Assembly: GCA_903916665.1 (NCBI GenBank)
Contig: CAIWXP010000101.1
Coordinates: 1 to 10,287 of the forward strand
Direction: 5' to 3'
Length of the DNA: 10,287 nt
Origin: Candidatus Iainarchaeum sp.
GTDB lineage: Archaea > Iainarchaeota > Iainarchaeia > Iainarchaeales > 0-14-0-20-30-16
The notes under the pieces were generated by a model. It was not told the origin of the DNA. It did not search any database and saw nothing but the letters and a program-made list of their open reading frames with translations. Below, in pieces: positions 2,277-10,221 of this stretch. Made by a program: the position numbers and the translations under genes. Every line of letters begins with the position of its first letter. Positions within the stretch are counted from its first letter, which is position 1.

Positions 2277-2297
2277 TTATTTCTTAGATTTATTTTT
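2263..2297. terminator. Inverted repeat plus T-tract at the zero-gap junction of convergent mcm and the 2277-2780 gene
   Basis: CTAAGAAA (2263-2270) and TTTCTTAG (2280-2287) form a perfect 8-bp inverted repeat around a 9-nt loop that holds both stop codons (TAA 2274-2276 on +, TTA 2277-2279 = TAA on -). TTTATTTTT follows at 2289-2297 on the + strand. Confidence 0.3.
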
Positions 2298-2780
2298 AAT
2301 TAAGTCTCTTACAAATTTCATTGATTCTGATATTGCGTCTGTTGTACGACTACTACCATCATCTAATGCAATTCTCATAGCTATTTCTAATTTTGTCATA
2401 AATCTTCTTAAATTTGGGTCAGTCATTTTTCTTAAATTAACATAATCAGTTGCAGAATTTAAAGTATCAATAACAAAAAAATCTGCTAATTCTGGATGGT
2501 CTGCAACATATTGTACAATACCTCTACTTGAAGATAATTGTAATAATTCAGGAACAAATGTTTTTTCATAATATTCTAAATTAATTAAACGATTTGTTTT
2601 ATGAACTTCATATACTTTTTTAATTTCTTCTTGCCAAGATCTAACTGTTTTACCTATTCTTGTAGTTCTTAATGTTTTAGCTCTTTCAACTAATTCTTGA
2701 TGTGCTATGCTTCCTGGTTTAATTTTTGTTAAAGGTCTTGCAGTAGGTCTTATAACTCTATTTGGTTTTATAGCAGGCAT
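2277..2780 (-). CDS. Uncharacterised protein, long-form member X of the paralogous family (167 aa from the preferred start)
   Basis: Long ORF, clear paralog of 4167-4649. RPLTKIKPGSIAHQELVERA aligns with KPLTRIKVGSIPHRELVDRA (14/20 identical), and DFFVIDTLNS with EYFVLETLNT. I prefer ATG 2780 (MPAIKP...) over the track start 2795. The minus-strand sequence GGAGATGA (2786-2793) is a Shine-Dalgarno 5 nt upstream of it, and the paralog also begins MP. Confidence 0.75.
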   Translation of the reverse strand: MPAIKPNRVIRPTARPLTKIKPGSIAHQELVERAKTLRTTRIGKTVRSWQEEIKKVYEVHKTNRLINLEYYEKTFVPELLQLSSSRGIVQYVADHPELADFFVIDTLNSATDYVNLRKMTDPNLRRFMTKLEIAMRIALDDGSSRTTDAISESMKFVRDLIKNKSKK

Positions 2781-2795
2781 AGCATTCATCTCCAT

Positions 2796-2879
2796 AAATA
2801 TAATATAATTATAATTAAAGTAATAGAGTTAGGCTTTAAATAATTATATGTCCTAAATTTACTATTGGACGTGATTTTT
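2796..2879. promoter_or_regulatory. Divergent promoter region between the 2277-2780 gene (-) and the PLP enzyme gene (+)
   Basis: 84-nt, extremely AT-rich spacer. TTTAAATA (2835-2842) matches the archaeal TATA consensus TTTAWATA and lies 38 nt upstream of ATG 2880. It is followed by the SD-like GGACGTGA (2867-2874). The minus-strand reading contains TTTAATTATAATTATA upstream of the other gene. Confidence 0.45.
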
Positions 2880-4175
2880 ATGAGTGTAGTTAATGAGAAA
2901 AGTAATGTTGTAGTTATTAAACCAACTAGTCAACCAAGAACTGCATTTGCAGATAATTCTTGGAAAAATTATAAAGAAGAAGGACCATTGGGGAAGATCC
3001 GTTGGAATCATTGGAATAAGGAAACTATATTAGTGCATAGTGCAGGTGCAAGAGGAGAATCTGGACCCTATGTTTCAATACCTACCTATACTGGAACAAC
3101 AAGTGCAGCATTAACCTGTGATGAATTAGCAAAAAGATTTGCTAATGCTGTTGTAGATGGCAGACAAGGAAAAATATATTCTAGATTAGGAACATCTTCT
3201 GGTTTTGAATTGGAATGTGCTTTGGCAGGATTACATGATTGTGGGGATGTTTTAGTTTTGGGCTCAGGTATGGCCGCAATAAGTCATTTATTTTTAACAT
3301 TAGTTACTGCTGGTGATAATATAGTTGTACATCGAACAATGTATGGTTGTACAGATGGTTTATGTAATACAATTTTGCCAGAATTAGGAATTGAAACTAG
3401 ATATGTTGATTTAAGAAACCCAGAAATATTAAAAAAAGTAATTGATGATAAAACTCGATTAGTATTCTTTGAAACTCCTGCAAATCCCACATTGGATTTA
3501 ATTGATATTAAAGCTGTTGTTGATGAAGTAAAAGGAAGAGTTCCTGTTATTGTTGATAATACTTTTTGTTCTCCTTTAGGACAAAATCCATTTGAGCAAG
3601 GTGCAAATATTGTAGTTTATTCAATAACTAAATCCATTGGTGGCCATAGTGATGCAATTGGTGGTGCTATTTTAGGTTCAGGAAAATTTATTGCAAATAT
3701 TTATCCAATAAGAAATGATATTGGGGGAATATTATCAGCAAGAGAATCTGCTGCATTTTTAACAGGAATAAAAACATTAAGTTTACGTTATAATCAAATG
3801 CAAGAAAGTGCAAGAGAAATTGCAAAATTATTAAAATCAAGTAATAAAGTAAAAAAAGTTTATTATCCTGAATTTGATGAAAAATATCCTTTGAATGGAC
3901 AAATGAAAGGCCCTGGATATATTATTTCTGTTGTTTTGGATAGCTTAGAATCTGGAAAGAAGTTTGTTGAATCTTTGCGAGTTATAACCAATGCTGTAAG
4001 TTTAGGGGGCGTAGAATCTTTAGTTTGTCATCCTGCAAGTACCACTCATGCAGTAGTTGCAAAAGAACAAAGAGAATCAAAAGATATTGTTGATGGTTTA
4101 ATAAGATTATCAATAGGTTGTGAATCTTTAGAAGACCTAAAAAAAGATATTCAAAGAGCATTGGATTCAATATAA
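2880..4175 (+). CDS. Cys/Met-metabolism PLP-dependent enzyme (methionine gamma-lyase / cystathionine gamma-synthase / beta-lyase / O-acetylhomoserine sulfhydrylase family; exact activity not resolvable)
   Basis: Family signatures are present: YSRLG..., GSGMAA, ETPANP, DNTFCSP, the PLP-lysine motif SITKSIGGHSD, SLGGVESLVCHPASTTH and LIRLSIGCE. ATG 2880 is preferred to the track TTG 2865 because the SD-like GGACGTGA plus a 5-nt T spacer precede it. Confidence 0.9.
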   Translation: MSVVNEKSNVVVIKPTSQPRTAFADNSWKNYKEEGPLGKIRWNHWNKETILVHSAGARGESGPYVSIPTYTGTTSAALTCDELAKRFANAVVDGRQGKIYSRLGTSSGFELECALAGLHDCGDVLVLGSGMAAISHLFLTLVTAGDNIVVHRTMYGCTDGLCNTILPELGIETRYVDLRNPEILKKVIDDKTRLVFFETPANPTLDLIDIKAVVDEVKGRVPVIVDNTFCSPLGQNPFEQGANIVVYSITKSIGGHSDAIGGAILGSGKFIANIYPIRNDIGGILSARESAAFLTGIKTLSLRYNQMQESAREIAKLLKSSNKVKKVYYPEFDEKYPLNGQMKGPGYIISVVLDSLESGKKFVESLRVITNAVSLGGVESLVCHPASTTHAVVAKEQRESKDIVDGLIRLSIGCESLEDLKKDIQRALDSI

Positions 4176-4200
4176 TTTTTTTCTTAATTCTTGAATCCAA
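4161..4200. terminator. 10-bp perfect inverted repeat spanning the overlapping 3' ends of the convergent PLP enzyme gene and the 4167-4649 gene, with oligo-T tracts on both strands
   Basis: TTGGATTCAA (4161-4170) pairs with TTGAATCCAA (4191-4200) around a 20-nt loop. T7 (4176-4182) lies directly after the + strand stop TAA 4173-4175. A7 (4139-4145), which is T7 on the minus strand, lies 22 nt downstream of the minus-strand stop (4167-4169). Confidence 0.4.
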
Positions 4201-4649
4201 GATTCATATCCATTTAATCCTAAAACATCTTTAATATAATTTGCAACTTCAATGTGGTTCCTTAATTCAATAACTTTTGTAGGTCCCAAGGAATCTAAAT
4301 GTACATTATAAATAGTATTCAAGGTTTCTAAAACAAAATATTCTGCATAGTGTTGATTTCTTGTAATAAAATCATTAATTTCTTTAGTAGTGCCAGAACT
4401 AAATTTTCTTACAAACCCTAAAGAAATTGCTTTATATGAATCTAAATCTATATTTCGTCTAGATTGCATAAGTGATAATCTTAATTCAGTAATATTAATG
4501 GTTGTTTGTGGAGTTTTAGCAGTTTTGCCAGATCGTCTTTCTTCTCTAGCTTTCAAAGCTCTATCAACTAATTCTCTATGAGGAATACTTCCCACTTTAA
4601 TTCTGGTTAATGGTTTAGAACTTTTTGCTAAAGGCCTAACTGTTGGCAT
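4167..4649 (-). CDS. Uncharacterised protein, long-form member Y of the paralogous family (160 aa)
   Basis: Long ORF, paralog of 2277-2780 along its whole length. Minus-strand SD GGAGTGA (4654-4660) lies 4 nt upstream of the ATG (4647-4649). Its 3' end overlaps the convergent PLP gene by 9 nt. Confidence 0.78.
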   Translation of the reverse strand: MPTVRPLAKSSKPLTRIKVGSIPHRELVDRALKAREERRSGKTAKTPQTTINITELRLSLMQSRRNIDLDSYKAISLGFVRKFSSGTTKEINDFITRNQHYAEYFVLETLNTIYNVHLDSLGPTKVIELRNHIEVANYIKDVLGLNGYESWIQELRKKLY

Positions 4650-4701
4650 AAAATCACTCCAATAAATATAATAATTAATATAATATTTGTAAGATTTATA
4701 T
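4650..4701 (-). promoter_or_regulatory. Putative promoter and SD region of the 4167-4649 gene
   Basis: 52-nt spacer made almost entirely of A/T. The minus-strand reading is TATAAATCTTACAAATATTATATTAATTATTATATTTATTGGAGTGATTTT-ATG, which gives several TATA-like candidates and a clear SD. The exact box cannot be chosen by eye. Confidence 0.35.
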
Positions 4702-5340
4702 TTATTTAGGTGATCTTGCTAATTGTTTTCTATATTCTCTGCTTTTTTTTGCAGACAAAGCTCTTACATTTAAATTATCTTTATAATATGAAAATTCAAA
4801 TTGATTAAATTGGTGAAAGCTAGTTCTAGAATTATTTTTGGTTAAATTTACGCCAACACCTTTGTGTTCTAATATTGGTTTCAAAAATCCTTCAGACCAA
4901 TGGTTTACGCAAACATCTCCATCTTCACCAAATACTTCTAAATCAACTTGCTTTCCTAATTTGGAATAAATTCTTTCTGGCAAATATTCTTCTTGATATT
5001 GTGGTAAAAAATTAGTATCAACAAAAGAATCACCTAATTGCTCTCTTGCAAATTCTTTAAATCGTTTAATTAATTTATCATATATTGATTTTAATTCTGC
5101 TATTTGTTCTTTTGATACTTTTGATTTGGGTTTTAAATCGTCTTCTAAATAAGGATCAACTAAAATAAATAAAGTATTTGGATTTCTTGCAGATTCTAAA
5201 ACGGCTTTGCCATATTGAGCAAGATTTATTTTAACTATTTTTAGACATTCTTCTTTACTAATTTTTTTCATAATGTAATCATATAATGGATTAAAAAGAG
5301 GATGCACCAATAGTTTTATTTGATTATATTGTTTAGGCAT
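4702..5340 (-). CDS. Hypothetical protein (212 aa), no family recognised
   Basis: Uninterrupted 212-codon ORF in an AT-rich background. The palindromic TATA-like ATTTAAAT (5361-5368) is centred about 25 nt upstream of the ATG (5338-5340) with no SD. This suggests a leaderless transcript. Confidence 0.65.
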   Translation of the reverse strand: MPKQYNQIKLLVHPLFNPLYDYIMKKISKEECLKIVKINLAQYGKAVLESARNPNTLFILVDPYLEDDLKPKSKVSKEQIAELKSIYDKLIKRFKEFAREQLGDSFVDTNFLPQYQEEYLPERIYSKLGKQVDLEVFGEDGDVCVNHWSEGFLKPILEHKGVGVNLTKNNSRTSFHQFNQFEFSYYKDNLNVRALSAKKSREYRKQLARSPK

Positions 5341-5594: not shown

Positions 5595-6479
5595 ATGAAT
5601 TCATTTAGTTCACGTAACAAAATAATGTTTCAAGTGTTTTTATCCTATTTATTATCTTTTCTAATTGCAGTATGGTTGTTTCTTTTGTTTAGAGCTAGTG
5701 GTGTAACTGTTGAAACCATTGCGCCAGCAAATAGCCTATGGAATACGGTTTATTTTTTTGCAGTGATAATTGTTGAAACTGTTATTTTAATTTTATTATT
5801 AAAAACCTTTAAAAAATTAAATCTATTAAAAGGTATTGATATTTTTGTAAGTTTTTTTGCAGTGTTTGGAATTTTTTCATTATTCTTTGAATCATTAATT
5901 TGGCCATTATTAATTTCTATACTATTAATTGCAGTAAAAGAAATAACAAAAAGTGTTTGGTTAAAAAATGCAATTGTGTTTTTAGTGGTTGGATTTTTTG
6001 GTGCCTATATTGGCTATAGTTTAGGAATTCTTCCAGTATTTTTATTATTAGTTTTAATTGCAATTTACGATTATATTGCGGTATTTAAAACTAAACATAT
6101 GGTATTCTTGGCAAATCAAATAATTGACAAGAACACTTTATTTGTAATGGACTATGGAAATGTAAATACTACTAGTACAACAGAAATAAAACAAGAAATT
6201 AAACCCGTTAAAACAAAAGAAAAGGAAATAGATCCAAGCAAAAGAAATCATTTACATTTAGGAACGGGAGATTTTGCATTACCTTTAATGGCAATTATGG
6301 CTTTGTTTGCAGTAAATTGGATTTTTGGAATAATTGCTTTTTTTGCTTGTTTATTAAGTTTAGAATTAACAATATATTTATTATTTACAAAAAAACATTT
6401 AGCTTTGCCAGCAATACCTTTGCAAGCAATAGGCTATACCATTGTGTTAGGAATCTATGTTATAATTAGTTTAATTTAA
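5595..6479 (+). CDS. Presenilin / signal-peptide-peptidase family (A22, GxGD-type) intramembrane aspartyl protease homolog
   Basis: Polytopic hydrophobic protein of 294 aa. It has the YD motif (AIYDYIAVF; Asp159, nt 6069-6071), the GxGD motif (HLGTGDFALP; Asp226, nt 6270-6272) and a PAL-like motif (LALPAIP, residues 270-275). A polar loop sits between the two catalytic TM segments, as in archaeal presenilin homologs. Confidence 0.8.
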   Translation: MNSFSSRNKIMFQVFLSYLLSFLIAVWLFLLFRASGVTVETIAPANSLWNTVYFFAVIIVETVILILLLKTFKKLNLLKGIDIFVSFFAVFGIFSLFFESLIWPLLISILLIAVKEITKSVWLKNAIVFLVVGFFGAYIGYSLGILPVFLLLVLIAIYDYIAVFKTKHMVFLANQIIDKNTLFVMDYGNVNTTSTTEIKQEIKPVKTKEKEIDPSKRNHLHLGTGDFALPLMAIMALFAVNWIFGIIAFFACLLSLELTIYLLFTKKHLALPAIPLQAIGYTIVLGIYVIISLI

Positions 6480-6502: not shown

Positions 6503-6880
6503 ATGCCAAAACCATTACCTGTCATAGTTAGAAAACCAATGGACCATATTGAGTGCCTTGATCATGATTTACTACATCATGAATTAACTAGAGATGTAAG
6601 GGAATTAAAACCTCATCAAATAGAAAGAACAAAACAAATAACTGCTGTTCTTTTAGGTAAATTTGACATATTTTTAGAACAATTATCAAAACAAGAAGTG
6701 GATAGATTATATGTGCAACATAGAGATAAGGATATTGTAATAAGAGCATTGAGATATAAAATAATTAGGTCAAAAGAGATTGGGCCATTATTAGCAGAAT
6801 TAGGACAAATAGATTATAATTTAGTTACAAATGTAATGAGACATTTGGAAAAAATATTAAGACAAAGATATGATTTATAG
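6503..6880 (+). CDS. Small paralog A (125 aa), uncharacterised family
   Basis: ORF with a weak SD-like AGTGAGTG (6487-6494). The C-terminal KEIGPLLAELGQID-YNLVTNVMRHL aligns to the family motif. The N-terminal MPKPLPVIVRKP...LLHHELTRD resembles the N-termini of the two long forms. Confidence 0.7.
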   Translation: MPKPLPVIVRKPMDHIECLDHDLLHHELTRDVRELKPHQIERTKQITAVLLGKFDIFLEQLSKQEVDRLYVQHRDKDIVIRALRYKIIRSKEIGPLLAELGQIDYNLVTNVMRHLEKILRQRYDL

Positions 6881-6888
6881 TGATTTTT

Positions 6889-7233
6889 ATGGCAAAGGAA
6901 TTAGCTAGACGATTGGATAGATTTGAGAATAGAAGATTAGAACTAATTCCTCAAATAACTTCTAAAGATAGAAAAAGAATAGATTTAGTATTTAGTGTAT
7001 CTAGAAAAATAACTCGATCAGTAATTCATAATAGTAAAGAGTTAAAAAAATTGCCTTTACAAGAAAGAGAAATTGTTATTGCAACACAAGTATTTAAAGA
7101 TTTTCCAGAATTAGTTAGTGTTTTGGAAAAAGTAAGTAGACAAGATCCAGAATTTTATAAACAATTAAGTGCAGCAATAGGTGCAAGAGTTAGATTAGAA
7201 GCAAAAAATGTTGATAAAATATATGAAAGCTAA
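6889..7233 (+). CDS. Small paralog B (114 aa), uncharacterised family
   Basis: ATG 6889 is preferred to the track GTG 6880, because GTGAT (6880-6884) is the 3' part of an SD followed by a T-rich spacer. Motifs: RLELIP at residues 16-21 and PELVSVLEKVSRQDPEFYKQLSAAIGARV from Pro73. Confidence 0.72.
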   Translation: MAKELARRLDRFENRRLELIPQITSKDRKRIDLVFSVSRKITRSVIHNSKELKKLPLQEREIVIATQVFKDFPELVSVLEKVSRQDPEFYKQLSAAIGARVRLEAKNVDKIYES

Positions 7234-7244
7234 GAGTTGTTATT

Positions 7245-7559
7245 ATGCCAGAAGAACCAAAGAAATCAGTAAAAGTAGTTGTTAGAAAAACTAGAATACC
7301 AATAGGGCAGGATCCAAAATCTACTAGAAAGATAGTTAGTATATTTTCAACATTAACTGATTTAATAAGGGAACAGAGAGCTAAATTAAGACCTATGAAA
7401 AAAGTAGATGTTAAATCATTTTTGATTGTTCAATTATTTAAGGTCAATCCAGAATTAAGAGAATTTTTAGCACAATTAGAAGAAGAAGATAAAGAATCCT
7501 ATGCAAATTTAGTTGCCGCAATAGATGTAAGAATTGATGAAGAGATAGGAAAAATATAG
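7245..7559 (+). CDS. Small paralog C (104 aa), uncharacterised family
   Basis: The basic N-terminal half (MPEEPKKSVKVVVRKTRIPIGQDPKSTRK) is followed by PELREFLAQLEEEDKESYANLVAAIDVRI from Pro69. Confidence 0.72.
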   Translation: MPEEPKKSVKVVVRKTRIPIGQDPKSTRKIVSIFSTLTDLIREQRAKLRPMKKVDVKSFLIVQLFKVNPELREFLAQLEEEDKESYANLVAAIDVRIDEEIGKI

Positions 7560-7568
7560 GTGAATTTT

Positions 7569-7889
7569 ATGGTAAAAGAACCAAAAGGAGTAAAACCAGA
7601 AAAAAGATTTTCTAGATTAGAAGTTATTCCGAGAACACAAACTAATCCTAAAACTCAAAGAATATTAAGAGATTTGCAACCTATTTTATATTCAACAATT
7701 GATGCCATTGCCAAAGGAAAACCAACAGAAGTAAGAATTAAAAGAGAACTATCAAAAATAATGATTGATCCTAAAATTAGACCATTTTTGGTAGAATTAG
7801 AAAAGTTAGATGAAAATGCATTTAGAATAGTTATGAATATTATTAGAGTAAGAGTGTTATCACAATTAGAAGGAAAAAATACATTATAA
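7569..7889 (+). CDS. Small paralog D (106 aa), uncharacterised family
   Basis: ATG 7569 is preferred to the track GTG 7560, because AGGTGA (7558-7563) is an SD with a 5-nt spacer. Motifs: RLEVIP at residues 16-21, the same position as in B, and PKIRPFLVELEKLDENAFRIVMNIIRVRV from Pro68. Confidence 0.72.
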   Translation: MVKEPKGVKPEKRFSRLEVIPRTQTNPKTQRILRDLQPILYSTIDAIAKGKPTEVRIKRELSKIMIDPKIRPFLVELEKLDENAFRIVMNIIRVRVLSQLEGKNTL

Positions 7890-7899
7890 GAGAATCGCT

Positions 7900-8232
7900 A
7901 TGCATAAATTACCTGAAAAACCTAAAAAAACCGAGCAAAAGTTAATACCAAAGGTAGTTTCAAAACCCAAAACAAAGGCATCCTATTTTATTGAAAAACA
8001 TAGAGACAGAATAACAGAAATAAGAGATCGAATTATTGGCACTGCTAAATCACATGATAGATTAAAATTAGCCAATGCAATTTCAAGAGCAGTTTTAGGC
8101 GATCCTGAAATTAAAGCAGAATTAAGTATTTTATTTAAAGAAGATAGAGCAGCATATAGAGATGCAATAGTAAACATAAAGTATATTTTATTTCCCAGAA
8201 TAGAGGCTATTTTAAAGGAAGAAAATAGATAA
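7900..8232 (+). CDS. Small paralog E (110 aa), uncharacterised family
   Basis: The Lys/Pro-rich N-terminus (MHKLPEKPKKTEQKLIPKVVSKPKTK) is followed by PEIKAELSILFKEDRAAYRDAIVNIKYIL from Pro69. Confidence 0.72.
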   Translation: MHKLPEKPKKTEQKLIPKVVSKPKTKASYFIEKHRDRITEIRDRIIGTAKSHDRLKLANAISRAVLGDPEIKAELSILFKEDRAAYRDAIVNIKYILFPRIEAILKEENR

Positions 8233-8250
8233 TTGTTTATAAATCTTTTC

Positions 8251-8278
8251 ATTCCTATATATTATATTAATTTTAAAA
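8251..8278 (+). promoter_or_regulatory. Putative promoter of the L1-P0-P1 operon
   Basis: ATTCCTATATATTATATTAATTTTAAAA contains overlapping TATA-like elements 50-75 nt upstream of the L1 start. This is the only sizeable intergenic gap (94 nt) between 5595 and 10221. Confidence 0.4.
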
Positions 8279-8326
8279 GGCTATTTTGCCGTTGTACTGC
8301 CCGTAATCGAGCAGGAGGTCATAAAC
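8279..8326 (+). promoter_or_regulatory. GC-rich structured 5' leader of the rpl1 operon (two short hairpins plus a strong SD); candidate L1 autoregulatory site
   Basis: Positions 8279-8320 contain 23 G/C in 42 nt, in an otherwise strongly AT-rich window. Hairpin 1 pairs GGC (8279-8281) with GCC (8288-8290). Hairpin 2 pairs CUGC (8297-8300) with GCAG (8311-8314), with an inner CG/CG pair and a UAAU loop. SD GGAGGT (8314-8319) shares its first G with hairpin 2 and lies 7 nt before the TTG start at 8327. Confidence 0.45.
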
Positions 8327-9052
8327 TTGGTAAAAGATAAAATAATCTTAAAACAAAAATCTAAAGAATCACTTAATACTGAAAATGTAACTAAGCTGAA
8401 TACTTCTTTAGATTATATAACCAAAGCAATTGCTTCTGTAAAAGGTTTAGATAAAAGAAACTTTGTTCAAACTGTTGAAGCTGGAGTTAACCTAATGGGT
8501 ATAAACTTTAAGCAAACCAACAATAGAATAGGTTTTGATGTAGTTTTGCCTGTTGCTTTTCAAAAAGCACCTAGAGTTGCATTTTTTGGTTTAACTCCAA
8601 ATTTTATAAATAGTGTTAAAGACGTATTTGATAAAGTTATAACTGGAGATCAAATACCTACATTTGATAAAAAAACAGGTAAGAAATTGGCTGCAGAATA
8701 TGATTTATTCTTTGCTGAACCTGCTGCTTTAACTTTGGTAGGTAAGTATTTAGGTCAGACATTAGCCCCAAGAGGTAAAATGCCAAAGCCTTGTCCTCCA
8801 GATATGGCAGCAATTAAAGTATTAATTGCAAATGCATCAAGAACAGTAACTGTTTCTAATAAAAAAGGAGACGGATTACCTGTAGTACATTTCCCAATTG
8901 GTAAAGAAACCATGACTGATAAAGAATTAGCAGATAATTTTTTAACAATCTATGGAAAATTATTACCTTTATTGCCTGCAAACACACAGAATATAAAATC
9001 AATGTACATTAAGACAACAATGGGTCCTACAAAGTACATTTTCAAGAGGTAG
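8327..9052 (+). CDS. rpl1: 50S ribosomal protein L1 (uL1), TTG start
   Basis: Conserved L1 blocks are present: KRNFVQTVE, GFDVVLP, DLFFAEPAALTLVGKYLGQTLAPRGKMPKP and MGPT. TTG is the only start-like codon upstream of the conserved core and has a strong SD. The N-terminus is about 20 aa longer than typical archaeal L1. Confidence 0.93.
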   Translation: MVKDKIILKQKSKESLNTENVTKLNTSLDYITKAIASVKGLDKRNFVQTVEAGVNLMGINFKQTNNRIGFDVVLPVAFQKAPRVAFFGLTPNFINSVKDVFDKVITGDQIPTFDKKTGKKLAAEYDLFFAEPAALTLVGKYLGQTLAPRGKMPKPCPPDMAAIKVLIANASRTVTVSNKKGDGLPVVHFPIGKETMTDKELADNFLTIYGKLLPLLPANTQNIKSMYIKTTMGPTKYIFKR

Positions 9053-9057
9053 ATAGT

Positions 9058-9918
9058 ATGGTTAATAAAGCAGAAACTAAGAACCATTTTAAGAAATGGA
9101 AAGAAGCTGAAAGATCTACTTTTGAGAGCGCTTTAGATAAATACAATTATGTTATTGTAGGTAACTTAAACGAATTACCCGCAAAAGCAGAAAGAACTTT
9201 TAGAGCATTACTAAAAAAAGCAGGCTGTTTTACAAAGGTAATGAATTCAAAAGTTGCAATTAAAGCTTTGCATGCAAAAGGAATTACTGAATTAGATTCT
9301 TATTTAAAAGGACCAACTTTATTTGCATTAAGCAATGAAAGTCCATTTAAATTATATAAAGAAATTAGAAAGAATGCATCACCATCATTTGCAAAAGAAG
9401 GCGCAATAGCTCCTGAAGATATTGCAGTAAATGAAGGAGATACAGGAATACCTCCTGGACCAGCATTAACTGATTTCAAAGTTGCACATATTGATACTCA
9501 AATTAGAAATGGTAAGATATATATTTCAAAGAAAACTGTTGTTGCACACAAAGGATCAAAAATAGATTCAAAAATTGCAACATTGTTAACTAAATTAAAT
9601 ATCAGACCCATGAAAATTTTATTAGATTTGAGAACTGTTTTAGATAGATCTGGAAAAGCTCTTTACTCAAGAGATTTATTAGATATTAATATGGAACAAT
9701 TAATTGATAAAATAAAGAATGCGTATAACAGATCACATTATTTAGCAATAGGTAATGGATATATTACAAAACAAACAATTAAACCTTTATTAATTAAGGG
9801 TTATAAAAGTTCTAAAGCAGTTGCTTTGGCAGGAAATGTTGTAAATAAAGACACTGCTAAACAAATAGTTGGTAAGGCTCAAAGAATTGCCAATGCTTTA
9901 GGCAAGAAGGTTATTTAA
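9058..9918 (+). CDS. rpl10: 50S ribosomal stalk protein P0 (uL10), short form lacking the acidic C-terminal tail
   Basis: Archaeal P0 blocks are present: YVIVGNLNELPA, GPTLFALSNESPFKLYK, IAPEDIAVNEGDTGIPPGP and LLTKLNIRP. SD GAGGT (9046-9050) lies inside the L1 3' end. The protein ends ...GKAQRIANALGKKVI. Confidence 0.93.
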   Translation: MVNKAETKNHFKKWKEAERSTFESALDKYNYVIVGNLNELPAKAERTFRALLKKAGCFTKVMNSKVAIKALHAKGITELDSYLKGPTLFALSNESPFKLYKEIRKNASPSFAKEGAIAPEDIAVNEGDTGIPPGPALTDFKVAHIDTQIRNGKIYISKKTVVAHKGSKIDSKIATLLTKLNIRPMKILLDLRTVLDRSGKALYSRDLLDINMEQLIDKIKNAYNRSHYLAIGNGYITKQTIKPLLIKGYKSSKAVALAGNVVNKDTAKQIVGKAQRIANALGKKVI

Positions 9919-9930
9919 GAGGTGGAATGA

Positions 9931-10221
9931 ATGGAATATATTTACGCTGCAATGTTATTGAACAGTGCAAAAAAACAAATTACTGAAGCAAGTATTACAA
10001 GTATAATTAAAGCTGCAGGATTAGAAGTAGATGGTGCAAAAATCAAGTCATTGGTTGAAGCATTAAAAGATGTAGACTTTGAAGCTGTAATAAAAGACGC
10101 ATCAACAGTTGCTGTTGCTGCTCCAGTTGCTGCTGCACCAGTTGCAGAACACAAAGCTGAAAAGAAAGAAGAAAAAACAGTTGAAGAAGCATCTGCTGGT
10201 TTAGGTTCTTTATTTGGTTAA
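9931..10221 (+). CDS. rpl12: 50S ribosomal stalk protein P1 (archaeal L12)
   Basis: It has the MEYIYAAMLL N-terminal dimerisation domain, an Ala/Pro hinge (VAVAAPVAAAPVA), an acidic stretch and the C-terminal GLGSLFG. SD GAGGTGG (9919-9925) lies 5 nt upstream of the ATG. Confidence 0.95.
   Translation: MEYIYAAMLLNSAKKQITEASITSIIKAAGLEVDGAKIKSLVEALKDVDFEAVIKDASTVAVAAPVAAAPVAEHKAEKKEEKTVEEASAGLGSLFG

What the first reader, a model, noticed from the sequence alone, without database searches (positions are those of the whole stretch)
6503..8232. Tandem array of five diverged paralogs of an unrecognised small-protein family
Five consecutive 104-125 aa genes share one architecture. The N-terminal arm is Lys/Arg/Pro-rich with a hydrophobic-Ile-Pro motif: RLELIP in B and RLEVIP in D, both at residues 16-21, RIP in C and LIP in E. 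In C, D and E this is followed by [DNK]-P-K-[ST]. The rest is predicted helical and ends in an acidic, conserved block. From the conserved Pro (residues 68-73 in B-E) the four proteins align without gaps: B PELVSVLEKVSRQDPEFYKQLSAAIGARV, C PELREFLAQLEEEDKESYANLVAAIDVRI, D PKIRPFLVELEKLDENAFRIVMNIIRVRV, E PEIKAELSILFKEDRAAYRDAIVNIKYIL. Invariant positions are P0, L+6, D+13, [YF]+17 and I+24, with [LI]+2 and [LV]+9. A fits with a 3-residue gap (KEIGPLLAELGQID---YNLVTNVMRHL). B and D share the N-terminal pattern M-x-K-E...RLE-x-IP and the same SD context. That hints that a two-gene unit (B-C) was duplicated to give D-E, though C/E similarity is weaker. The strong charge bipolarity (basic N-half, acidic C-half) suggests nucleic-acid or ribosome/chromatin association. 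I cannot assign a fold or function. Five retained, diverged copies in a compact genome argue for selection on diversity or on hetero-oligomer formation.
Basis: partly seen in the sequence, partly recalled or inferred. Interest (0 to 1): 0.85.

Follow-up and report, generated by a model that had tools for sequence, protein, structure and literature searches.

The report
Orphan small-protein gene array in DPANN archaeon
Five neighbouring genes in a tiny uncultured (DPANN) archaeon really do encode diverged copies of one small, basic, all-helical protein. The family has no detectable relatives outside a narrow lineage and is present in 0 to 5 copies at the same genomic spot in close relatives, so it is a dispensable, fast-evolving accessory family of unknown function rather than core machinery.

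Summary
Window 6503-8232 carries five tightly packed same-strand genes (A-E, 104-125 aa) that are homologous to each other. The links are significant directly (B-C, C-D) and, once orthologues from other contigs are added, for all five subfamilies.

The host is a DPANN archaeon close to 'Ca. Diapherotrites' CG08. In this clade the backbone is MCM - presenilin-like peptidase (SPP) - L1-L10-L12, and the family sits only in the SPP-to-L1 gap. Copy number there is 5 (window), 3 in the order B-A-E (CG08), 1 (C only) and 0 (four relatives, including the closest).

Orthologues diverge faster than their neighbours: 30-52% identity against 65-86%, and dN/dS 0.4-0.85 against 0.1-0.17.

No hit was found in Pfam, NCBIfam, PHROGs, PADLOC, PDB sequences, Foldseek PDB/BFVD, IMG/VR or GTDB representative genomes. 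A scan of 1.84 billion proteins found only two real relatives.

AlphaFold gives a disordered Lys/Arg/Pro arm followed by a confident 4-5-helix domain. The conserved residues are helix caps and core positions, so the protein is not an enzyme.

Best guess at low confidence: accessory nucleic-acid-binding or adaptor proteins. Interest is moderate.

The parts
6503..6880 (+). Gene A (125 aa), the most divergent subfamily. Disordered arm at residues 1-21, helices at 37-60, 63-73, 76-88, 94-103 and 105-123. Conserved block at residues 91-119 (nt 6773-6859).
   Evidence: ORF. Orthologues P0011 (59% identity, directly after SPP on L041) and P0010 (37%, CG08). AF2 pLDDT 82.5, pTM 0.71. Link to the family: hhalign 4e-4 and 9e-4; L5A-wD z=7.1.
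6889..7233 (+). Gene B (114 aa from ATG 6889; the alternative GTG at 6880 overlaps the stop codon of A). RLELIP at residues 16-21 (nt 6934-6951). Conserved block at residues 73-101 (nt 7105-7191).
   Evidence: called as 114 aa. Orthologues P0006/L5B at 41% identity, z=29. B-C z=7.9 and hhalign 8e-8.
7245..7559 (+). Gene C (104 aa), the hub of the family and the only member with a net acidic C-terminal third. RIP at residues 17-19. Conserved block at residues 69-97 (nt 7449-7535).
   Evidence: Orthologue P0005 at 52% identity, alone between SPP and L1 on L002/L003. AF2 pLDDT 67.5, four helices.
7569..7889 (+). Gene D (106 aa from ATG 7569; alternative GTG at 7560). RLEVIP at residues 16-21 (nt 7614-7631). 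Conserved block at residues 68-96 (nt 7770-7856). No orthologue was found elsewhere.
   Evidence: called as 106 aa. C-D z=6.6 and D-E z=4.0. L5A-wD z=7.1 and L5E-wD z=4.9.
7900..8232 (+). Gene E (110 aa). LIP at residues 15-17. Conserved block at residues 69-97 (nt 8104-8190). It is the last gene before the L1 promoter.
   Evidence: Orthologue P0008/L5E at 30% identity, z=13.2, also last before L1 in CG08.
5595..6479 (+). Presenilin/signal-peptide-peptidase homologue (SPP). It is the conserved upstream neighbour. The array starts 23 nt after its stop codon, so it is probably co-transcribed with SPP (inference).
   Evidence: Pfam PF06550, 8.8e-17. A family gene follows SPP at 12-23 nt in L005, L002, L004 and L041.
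8236..8326 (+). Conserved L1 promoter (TTTATAAAT box) and leader. It marks the downstream boundary of the variable gap and is not part of the family.
   Evidence: Conserved in L042, L002, L005, L006, L007 and L043.

Best explanation
Shown. A-E are real genes of one lineage-restricted orphan family found in 'Ca. Diapherotrites'-like DPANN archaea. The five subfamilies are old paralogues, not a recent expansion. They live in one variable slot between the SPP gene and the promoter of the L1-L10-L12 operon, and they are gained or lost there in a birth-and-death manner (0, 1, 3 or 5 copies in relatives). They evolve several times faster than their neighbours.

Each protein has a roughly 20-residue disordered Lys/Arg/Pro arm with a near-invariant Pro, followed by a compact bundle of 4-5 helices. 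The conserved residues are two helix N-caps ([DNS]-P-E and [DN]-x-x-x-[YF]) plus buried Leu/Ile. There are no conserved Cys, His or acid-base residues, no transmembrane segment and no signal peptide.

Inferred. They are non-enzymatic binding proteins. Given pI 9-10.3 and the basic flexible arm, the most likely role is as accessory nucleic-acid-binding proteins, either nucleoid-associated or RNA/ribosome-associated. In this picture the helical domain gives specific contacts or self-association and the arm clamps the phosphate backbone. The 8-11 nt spacers suggest co-transcription with SPP and coupled translation. The paralogues act independently or redundantly, not as one fixed complex.

The confidence of 0.5 applies to the whole statement. 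The 'what it is' part is about 0.9; the nucleic-acid-binding mechanism alone is about 0.35.
For: Real and homologous.

Lineage and synteny: the closest GTDB genome is Diapherotrites CG08 (L1 72%).

Orthology of subfamilies across genomes.

Faster divergence: identities; dN/dS 0.43-0.85 against 0.11-0.17 for SPP and full-length L1.

Rarity:
- Only P0005 and P0006 as real relatives among 1.84 bn representatives.
- Only P0011 and the CG08 proteins by word search.
- None in 80 more distant SPP loci.
- None in GTDB representatives with the C-type query.
- None in IMG/VR.

Architecture: AF2 models agree with alignment A6. Basic pI.

No family, fold, defence or phage match.

No DNA-level repeats, tRNA or att-like sites around the array.
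Against: - Nothing tests nucleic-acid binding directly. High pI and Lys-rich tails are common in 28% GC genomes, and the neighbouring SPP also has pI 9.35.
- No HTH, histone, RHH or r-protein signal was found in any search.
- Absence from the closest relative (L042) shows the function is dispensable.
- Expression is unproven.
- dS is near saturation, so the dN/dS values are rough.
Confidence: 0.5

Rival explanations
1. Cargo of a degraded mobile element or virus, or a conflict system (toxin-antitoxin, defence or anti-defence), that landed in an insertion hot spot next to SPP. The small basic proteins would then be regulators or inhibitors under arms-race selection.
For: - Patchy presence of 0-5 copies at one slot, while other relatives carry unrelated genes there: a GNAT in L007 and a 137-aa protein in L043.
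- High dN/dS.
- Orphan status.
- A second window-specific insertion of orphan genes (X1, X2, Y) lies on the other side of SPP.
Against: - No integrase, tRNA, att-like direct repeat or terminal inverted repeat.
- GC content is the same as in the surrounding genes.
- No PHROG, PADLOC, BFVD or IMG/VR match.
- Subfamilies A, B and E stay at the same locus in genomes whose housekeeping proteins differ by 30-35%. This fits vertical descent with losses better than repeated insertion.
Confidence: 0.17
2. Partners of the presenilin-like peptidase. The small soluble proteins would be co-expressed with SPP and would regulate it, or be processed or anchored by it.
For: In every genome that has the family, the first family gene follows the SPP stop codon by only 12-23 nt on the same strand. 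The array ends before L1's own promoter, so SPP is the likely operon partner.
Against: - SPP is present and conserved without any family gene in L042, L006, L007 and L043, and in 80 more distant loci.
- The proteins have no transmembrane segment of the kind that intramembrane proteases cut.
- Adjacency may only reflect a permissive insertion point.
Confidence: 0.1
3. Accessory ribosome-associated proteins, for example hibernation or assembly factors, or a very diverged uS15-like RNA binder. This is suggested by the r-protein-like basic extension and the position beside the L1-L10-L12 operon.
For: - Basic arm plus small helical domain.
- The best, though non-significant, hits of the B-E profile and of the C model were bacterial S15: PDB profile E=0.13 and Foldseek E=1.4-8, TM 0.32-0.44.
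- Adjacency to L1.
Against: - The S15 signal disappears with the 10-sequence profile and with the more confident A model (one S15 chain at E=3.1, TM 0.23).
- No Pfam r-protein hit.
- The array is separated from L1 by L1's own promoter.
- Copy number of 0-5 is unlike that of ribosome components.
Confidence: 0.12
4. Not functional genes: chance ORFs or decaying pseudogene copies.
For: dN/dS is up to 0.75-0.85 for B and E. There is no expression evidence.
Against: - Five ORFs of 104-125 codons where the chance per ORF is about 5e-5.
- Orthologues remain intact in four other genomes at 30-59% identity.
- A confident AF2 fold from a 10-sequence alignment.
- Conserved helix-cap and core pattern.
- SD-like GGTGA/GTGA sequences sit before B and D.
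Confidence: 0.03

Closest known systems
Lineage-specific archaeal nucleoid-associated proteins (small basic proteins such as MC1, Sul7d, Cren7, 7kMk and histone paralogues). This is a resemblance of kind drawn from my own knowledge, not homology.
   Same: Small (about 100 aa) and basic, with flexible basic tails. Narrow taxonomic range. Variable paralogue number. No enzymatic residues.
   Different: No sequence or fold match to any of them: no Pfam hit and Foldseek PDB E>1. DNA binding is untested. The genes are dispensable even between close relatives.
Ribosomal protein uS15 (four-helix RNA binder)
   Same: Similar size, all-helical and basic. It was the top, non-significant, hit for the B-E profile and for the C model.
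   Different: E=0.13 at best by sequence, and lost with the wider profile. TM 0.23-0.44. The family is multi-copy and dispensable, and archaeal uS15 has a different architecture (own knowledge).
N-terminal core-binding (SAM-like) domain of tyrosine recombinases such as Cre
   Same: A basic helical bundle of about 100 residues. It appears among the weak hits for both models.
   Different: Foldseek E=3-6 and TM 0.28-0.34, which is noise level. No catalytic domain, no Pfam Phage_int_SAM hit, and no recombination sites nearby.
X1/X2 paralogue pair in the same window (2277-2795 and 4167-4649, minus strand)
   Same: Orphan, basic (pI 9.9), with an MP-K/R/P N-terminal arm. Paralogous to each other (z=20) and located in a variable slot next to SPP.
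   Different: Longer (160-172 aa). No significant similarity to A-E: hhalign E=0.06 over 16 columns around a shared 'PEL'-like motif.

Membership tests
Ribosomal protein uS15 (Pfam Ribosomal_S15; S15 fold) | Significant sequence-profile match to S15 | tested here: not met
   No Pfam hit at E<=1. PDB profile search gave E=0.13 with 4 sequences and no S15 hit with 10 sequences.
Ribosomal protein uS15 (Pfam Ribosomal_S15; S15 fold) | Structural superposition on the S15 four-helix fold (TM > 0.5, significant E-value) | tested here: not met
   Foldseek: C model E>=1.4, TMq 0.30-0.44. A model E=3.1, TMq 0.23.
Archaeal histone / histone fold | Match to the histone-fold profile and a short-long-short three-helix pattern of about 65 aa | tested here: not met
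   No Pfam hit. AF2 gives 4-5 helices with a long first helix and a long last helix. No histone among the Foldseek hits.
ESCRT-III / Snf7 (basic N-half, acidic C-half) | Snf7 profile match, about 200 aa, charge bipolarity across the family | tested here: not met
   No Pfam hit. Length is 104-125 aa. Bipolarity occurs only in C.
Ribbon-helix-helix (Arc/MetJ/CopG) DNA binders | N-terminal beta-strand followed by two helices, with an RHH profile match | tested here: inconclusive
   No Pfam RHH hit at E<=1. AF2 monomer models leave the arm (RLE[LV]IP) disordered, but a strand that forms only in a dimer could not be modelled here.
Tyrosine-recombinase core-binding domain | Significant fold or profile match, and an adjoining catalytic domain or att sites | tested here: not met
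   Foldseek E=3-6, TM 0.28-0.34. No catalytic domain and no repeats.
Known anti-phage defence / toxin-antitoxin proteins (PADLOC) | Profile match to a defence-system component | tested here: not met
   Best E=0.012, each to a single member and to different families.
Virus / phage protein families (PHROGs, BFVD, IMG/VR) | Sequence or structure match to viral proteins, or presence on viral contigs | tested here: not met
   PHROGs best E=0.035 for one member. BFVD Foldseek E>=1.3. No relative in IMG/VR with A-, B- or C-type queries.
The A-E family itself (proposed new family) | Shared C-terminal block [DNS]-P-[EKQ]-[LI]-x3-L-x2-L-x3-[DN]-x3-[YF]-x6-[IM], a basic N-arm with a conserved Pro, and location in the SPP-L1 gap | tested here: met
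   Alignment A6 of 10 members. Pairwise and profile statistics. Synteny.

The most novel reading that the evidence does not exclude
A-E define a previously undescribed protein fold family that serves as lineage-specific nucleoid- or RNA-associated proteins of Diapherotrites-like DPANN archaea. The family diversifies by birth and death of paralogues in a single hot spot between SPP and the L1 operon. Different paralogue sets would give close relatives different chromatin, RNA-handling or host-interaction properties.
Probability: 0.2. Interest if true: 0.6.

Novelty: categorically new. Interest (0 to 1): 0.38.

Why it matters
DPANN archaea have tiny genomes in which a large share of genes is 'dark matter'. 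This case is well delimited. It has five old paralogue subfamilies, a fixed genomic slot, copy number varying from 0 to 5 between close relatives, and a confident predicted structure with no match in the libraries I could search. That makes it a tractable model for how reduced genomes still create, keep and lose lineage-specific genes.

If the proteins bind DNA or RNA, they would add a new type to the very patchy repertoire of archaeal nucleoid or RNA-associated proteins. If not, it remains one more orphan family, which is ordinary for this group. 'Categorically new' is meant only in the sense that no known family, fold or system can be assigned. No new mechanism has been shown.

Tried and rejected
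- uS15 relationship. It was suggested by the top hits. I rejected it because the hits are non-significant, vanish with the broader profile and are not seen with the better model.
- Cre-like core-binding domain. It appears in both Foldseek lists at noise level. Rejected.
- B-C to D-E unit duplication. Rejected on the basis. The B/D similarity is confined to the SD/start patch and the RLE[LV]IP codons.
- X1/X2 as distant members of the family. hhalign E=0.06 and Smith-Waterman not significant. Not supported, although their N-arms look alike.
- Recent DNA-level duplication or flanking repeats: none found. No tRNA. No Rfam element.
- Viral or defence origin: no matches.
- Searches that added little. 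The word-indexed search with B-E returned only self hits. The GTDB scan with the C-type alignment found nothing. The eukaryotic repeat protein P0007 is a spurious multi-stretch hit.
Full report
**Window and neighbours.** The 10,287-nt window has 25-39% GC. Its genes are as follows.

| Coordinates | Strand | Gene |
|---|---|---|
| 207-2276 | + | archaeal MCM helicase |
| 2277-2795 | - | orphan X1 |
| 2865-4175 | + | Cys/Met-metabolism PLP enzyme |
| 4167-4649 | - | orphan X2 |
| 4702-5340 | - | orphan Y |
| 5595-6479 | + | presenilin/signal-peptide-peptidase homologue (SPP; PF06550, 8.8e-17) |
| 6503-8232 | + | the five genes of the finding |
| 8327-9052 | + | ribosomal protein L1 |
| 9058-9918 | + | L10/P0 |
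| 9931-10221 | + | L12/P1 |

The closest genome among GTDB representatives is 'Candidatus Diapherotrites archaeon CG08_land_8_20_14_0_20_30_16' (L1 72% identical). The host is therefore a DPANN archaeon.

**Check of the observation.** Five same-strand ORFs exist as described.
- B most likely starts at ATG 6889 (114 aa) and D at ATG 7569 (106 aa).
- Spacers between the genes are 8, 11, 9 and 10 nt. There are 23 nt after the SPP stop and 94 nt before L1.
- SD-like GTGA and GGTGA precede B and D.
- The chance of a 104-codon ORF at this base composition is about 5e-5.
- The quoted 29-residue block aligns without gaps in B-E, with invariant P, L, D and I.

**Statistics within the window.**
- Smith-Waterman against 1000 shuffles gives B-C z=7.9, C-D 6.6, D-E 4.0, C-E 3.6 and A-D 3.4. 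B-D, A-B, A-C and A-E are not significant.
- Profile-profile comparison gives B-C 8e-8, C-D 7e-4, D-E 2e-3, E vs B/C/D 1.6e-4, A-D 4e-4 and A vs B-E 9e-4, always in register over the C-terminal block.

**Statistics with orthologues from other contigs.** These close the network: CG08-A vs window D z=7.1, CG08-A vs CG08-E 5.8, L002-C vs CG08-E 8.2, and L002-C vs CG08-B 9.3. All five are therefore homologous. A aligns with no gap; its CG08 orthologue even carries the Pro and the 'DPQL' cap.

**How rare the family is.**
- A word-indexed search of 5.8 billion clusters with B-E returned only the window's own proteins.
- An exhaustive HMMER scan of 1.84 billion representatives added two real relatives: P0005 (C-type, 4e-15) and P0006 (B-type, 9e-6). 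It also returned one spurious repeat protein.
- A 10-sequence profile added P0011 (A-type) and the CG08 proteins, which NCBI annotates as 'hypothetical protein'.
- Nothing was found in GTDB representative genomes with the C-type alignment, in IMG/VR, or in 80 JGI metagenome loci carrying more distant SPP genes.
- No member matches Pfam, NCBIfam, PHROGs or PADLOC at meaningful E-values, nor PDB sequences.

**Synteny.** MCM-SPP adjacency holds in a wider clade, and MCM-SPP-L1-L10-L12 holds in the narrower one. The family occurs only in the gap between SPP and L1. The identity columns give SPP and L1 identity to the window's proteins; for L002/L003, L041 and L042 they rest on partial genes at contig ends. 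A dash means the gene is not on that contig.

| Locus | SPP identity | L1 identity | SPP-to-L1 gap |
|---|---|---|---|
| window | 100% | 100% | A-B-C-D-E |
| L041 | 88% | - | A, then the contig ends |
| L002/L003 | 86% | 73% | C only |
| CG08 genome (L005, L044, L004) | 65% | 70% | B-A-E |
| L042 (closest relative with a full-length SPP) | 81% | 78% | nothing; 190 nt intergenic |
| L006 | 51% | 67% | nothing |
| L007 | 53% | 63% | a GNAT gene instead |
| L043 | 67% | 76% | an unrelated 137-aa gene |

Each non-window member has one clear best partner among A-E (z=13-54). Subfamilies A, B, C and E therefore predate the divergence of these genomes, and the present pattern is differential retention and loss. 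This contradicts a recent B-C to D-E duplication. There is no DNA-level repeat beyond short codon patches. It also shows that no fixed five-member complex is needed.

**Rate of evolution.**
- Window vs CG08: SPP 65% and L1 70% identical, but A 37%, B 41% and E 30%.
- Window vs L002: SPP 86% and L1 73%, but C 52%.
- Nei-Gojobori dN/dS is 0.43-0.85 for the family, against 0.11-0.17 for SPP and for L1 over its full length (window vs CG08). The short L1 fragment on L002 gives 0.39. dS is close to saturation, so these figures are approximate.

The ORFs are maintained, but under weak or diversifying constraint.

**Structure.**
- AlphaFold2 on C with 4 sequences gave pLDDT 67.5. Residues 1-23 are disordered and helices lie at 24-48, 53-67, 69-81 and 83-103.
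- AlphaFold2 on A with 10 sequences gave pLDDT 82.5 and pTM 0.71, with the core mostly above 90. Residues 1-21 are disordered and helices lie at 37-60, 63-73, 76-88, 94-103 and 105-123.
- The two models map onto each other through alignment A6. A has one extra short helix.
- The conserved positions are two helix N-caps and buried Leu/Ile/Tyr. No conserved Cys, His or catalytic-type residues exist.
- Foldseek found nothing below E=1 in PDB with either model, nor in BFVD.
- S15 chains top the C-model list (E>=1.4, TM 0.3-0.44) and Cre N-terminal domains recur in both lists, all at noise level.

**Charge.** All members are basic (pI 9.1-10.3). Only the C-type has an acidic C-terminal third.

**Interpretation.** The following is shown:
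- a real, old, lineage-restricted family;
- a variable-copy tandem array in a fixed slot;
- fast evolution;
- a non-enzymatic helical domain with a flexible basic arm.

The function is inferred. My best guess is accessory nucleic-acid binding, either nucleoid- or RNA-associated (about 0.35). Other possibilities are a conflict or mobile-element origin (about 0.17), a ribosome-associated factor (about 0.12) and an SPP partner (about 0.10). Non-genes are very unlikely (0.03). The tight spacing and the position upstream of L1's own conserved promoter suggest co-transcription with SPP rather than with the r-protein operon.

**Verdict.** This is an unassignable orphan family, new at the family and apparent-fold level. 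Such families are common in DPANN genomes (general point, compare PMC9258230 and PMC6393860, listed), so interest is moderate at 0.38.

Noticed in passing
window 2277-2795 (-) and 4167-4649 (-): X1 and X2 form a second orphan paralogue pair: 30% identity, SW z=20, and only self hits in 5.8 bn clusters. Both are basic with an MP-K/R/P arm containing 'KPLT[KR]IK.GSI.H.ELV.RA', and they flank a Cys/Met PLP enzyme on the opposite strand.
   Followed up: partly
window 2277-5340: X1, the PLP enzyme, X2 and Y form an insertion specific to this genome. MCM and SPP are directly adjacent in L006, L007, L042 and L045-L047. None of the four inserted genes has a homologue in any fetched locus. L043 has a different 120-aa gene in that slot.
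   Followed up: partly
window 8236-8326: The L1 promoter box (GTTTATAAATC) and a leader (GGCTA(T/A)TTTGCCGT..GTACTGCCCGTAATCGAGCAGGAGGT) are conserved in six relatives. A CUGC/GCAG hairpin abuts the SD sequence. It has no Rfam match and shows no covariation because the pairs are invariant. It may be an L1 autoregulatory site like those known in Methanococcus (PMC2175363).
   Followed up: partly
L042 23-1675: The MCM gene of the closest relative carries an intein, with homing-endonuclease-like sequence ending ...GGLVLHN|TVSIAKAG. It sits at a site where the window's MCM is uninterrupted.
   Followed up: no
window 6860-6951 and 7540-7631: The 5' ends of B and D share two short DNA patches: the SD plus ATG, and AGATTAGAAnTnATTCC, which encodes RLE[LV]IP. 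The sequence between them is unrelated. The CG08 B orthologue lacks RLELIP. This may be a local conversion or a constrained motif.
   Followed up: partly
window genes A, C, X1 (from Met6), X2, Y; also P0008, P0010, P0011: Many of the orphan proteins begin with Met-Pro followed by a Lys/Arg/Pro-rich stretch (MPKPLP, MPEEPKK, MPAIKP, MPTVRP, MPKQYN, MPEKPP, MPVYKP). The significance is unknown.
   Followed up: no
window 207 and 8327: MCM and L1 both appear to start at TTG. L1 homologues in the relatives also start at TTG or GTG, just after a strong AGGAGGT.
   Followed up: no
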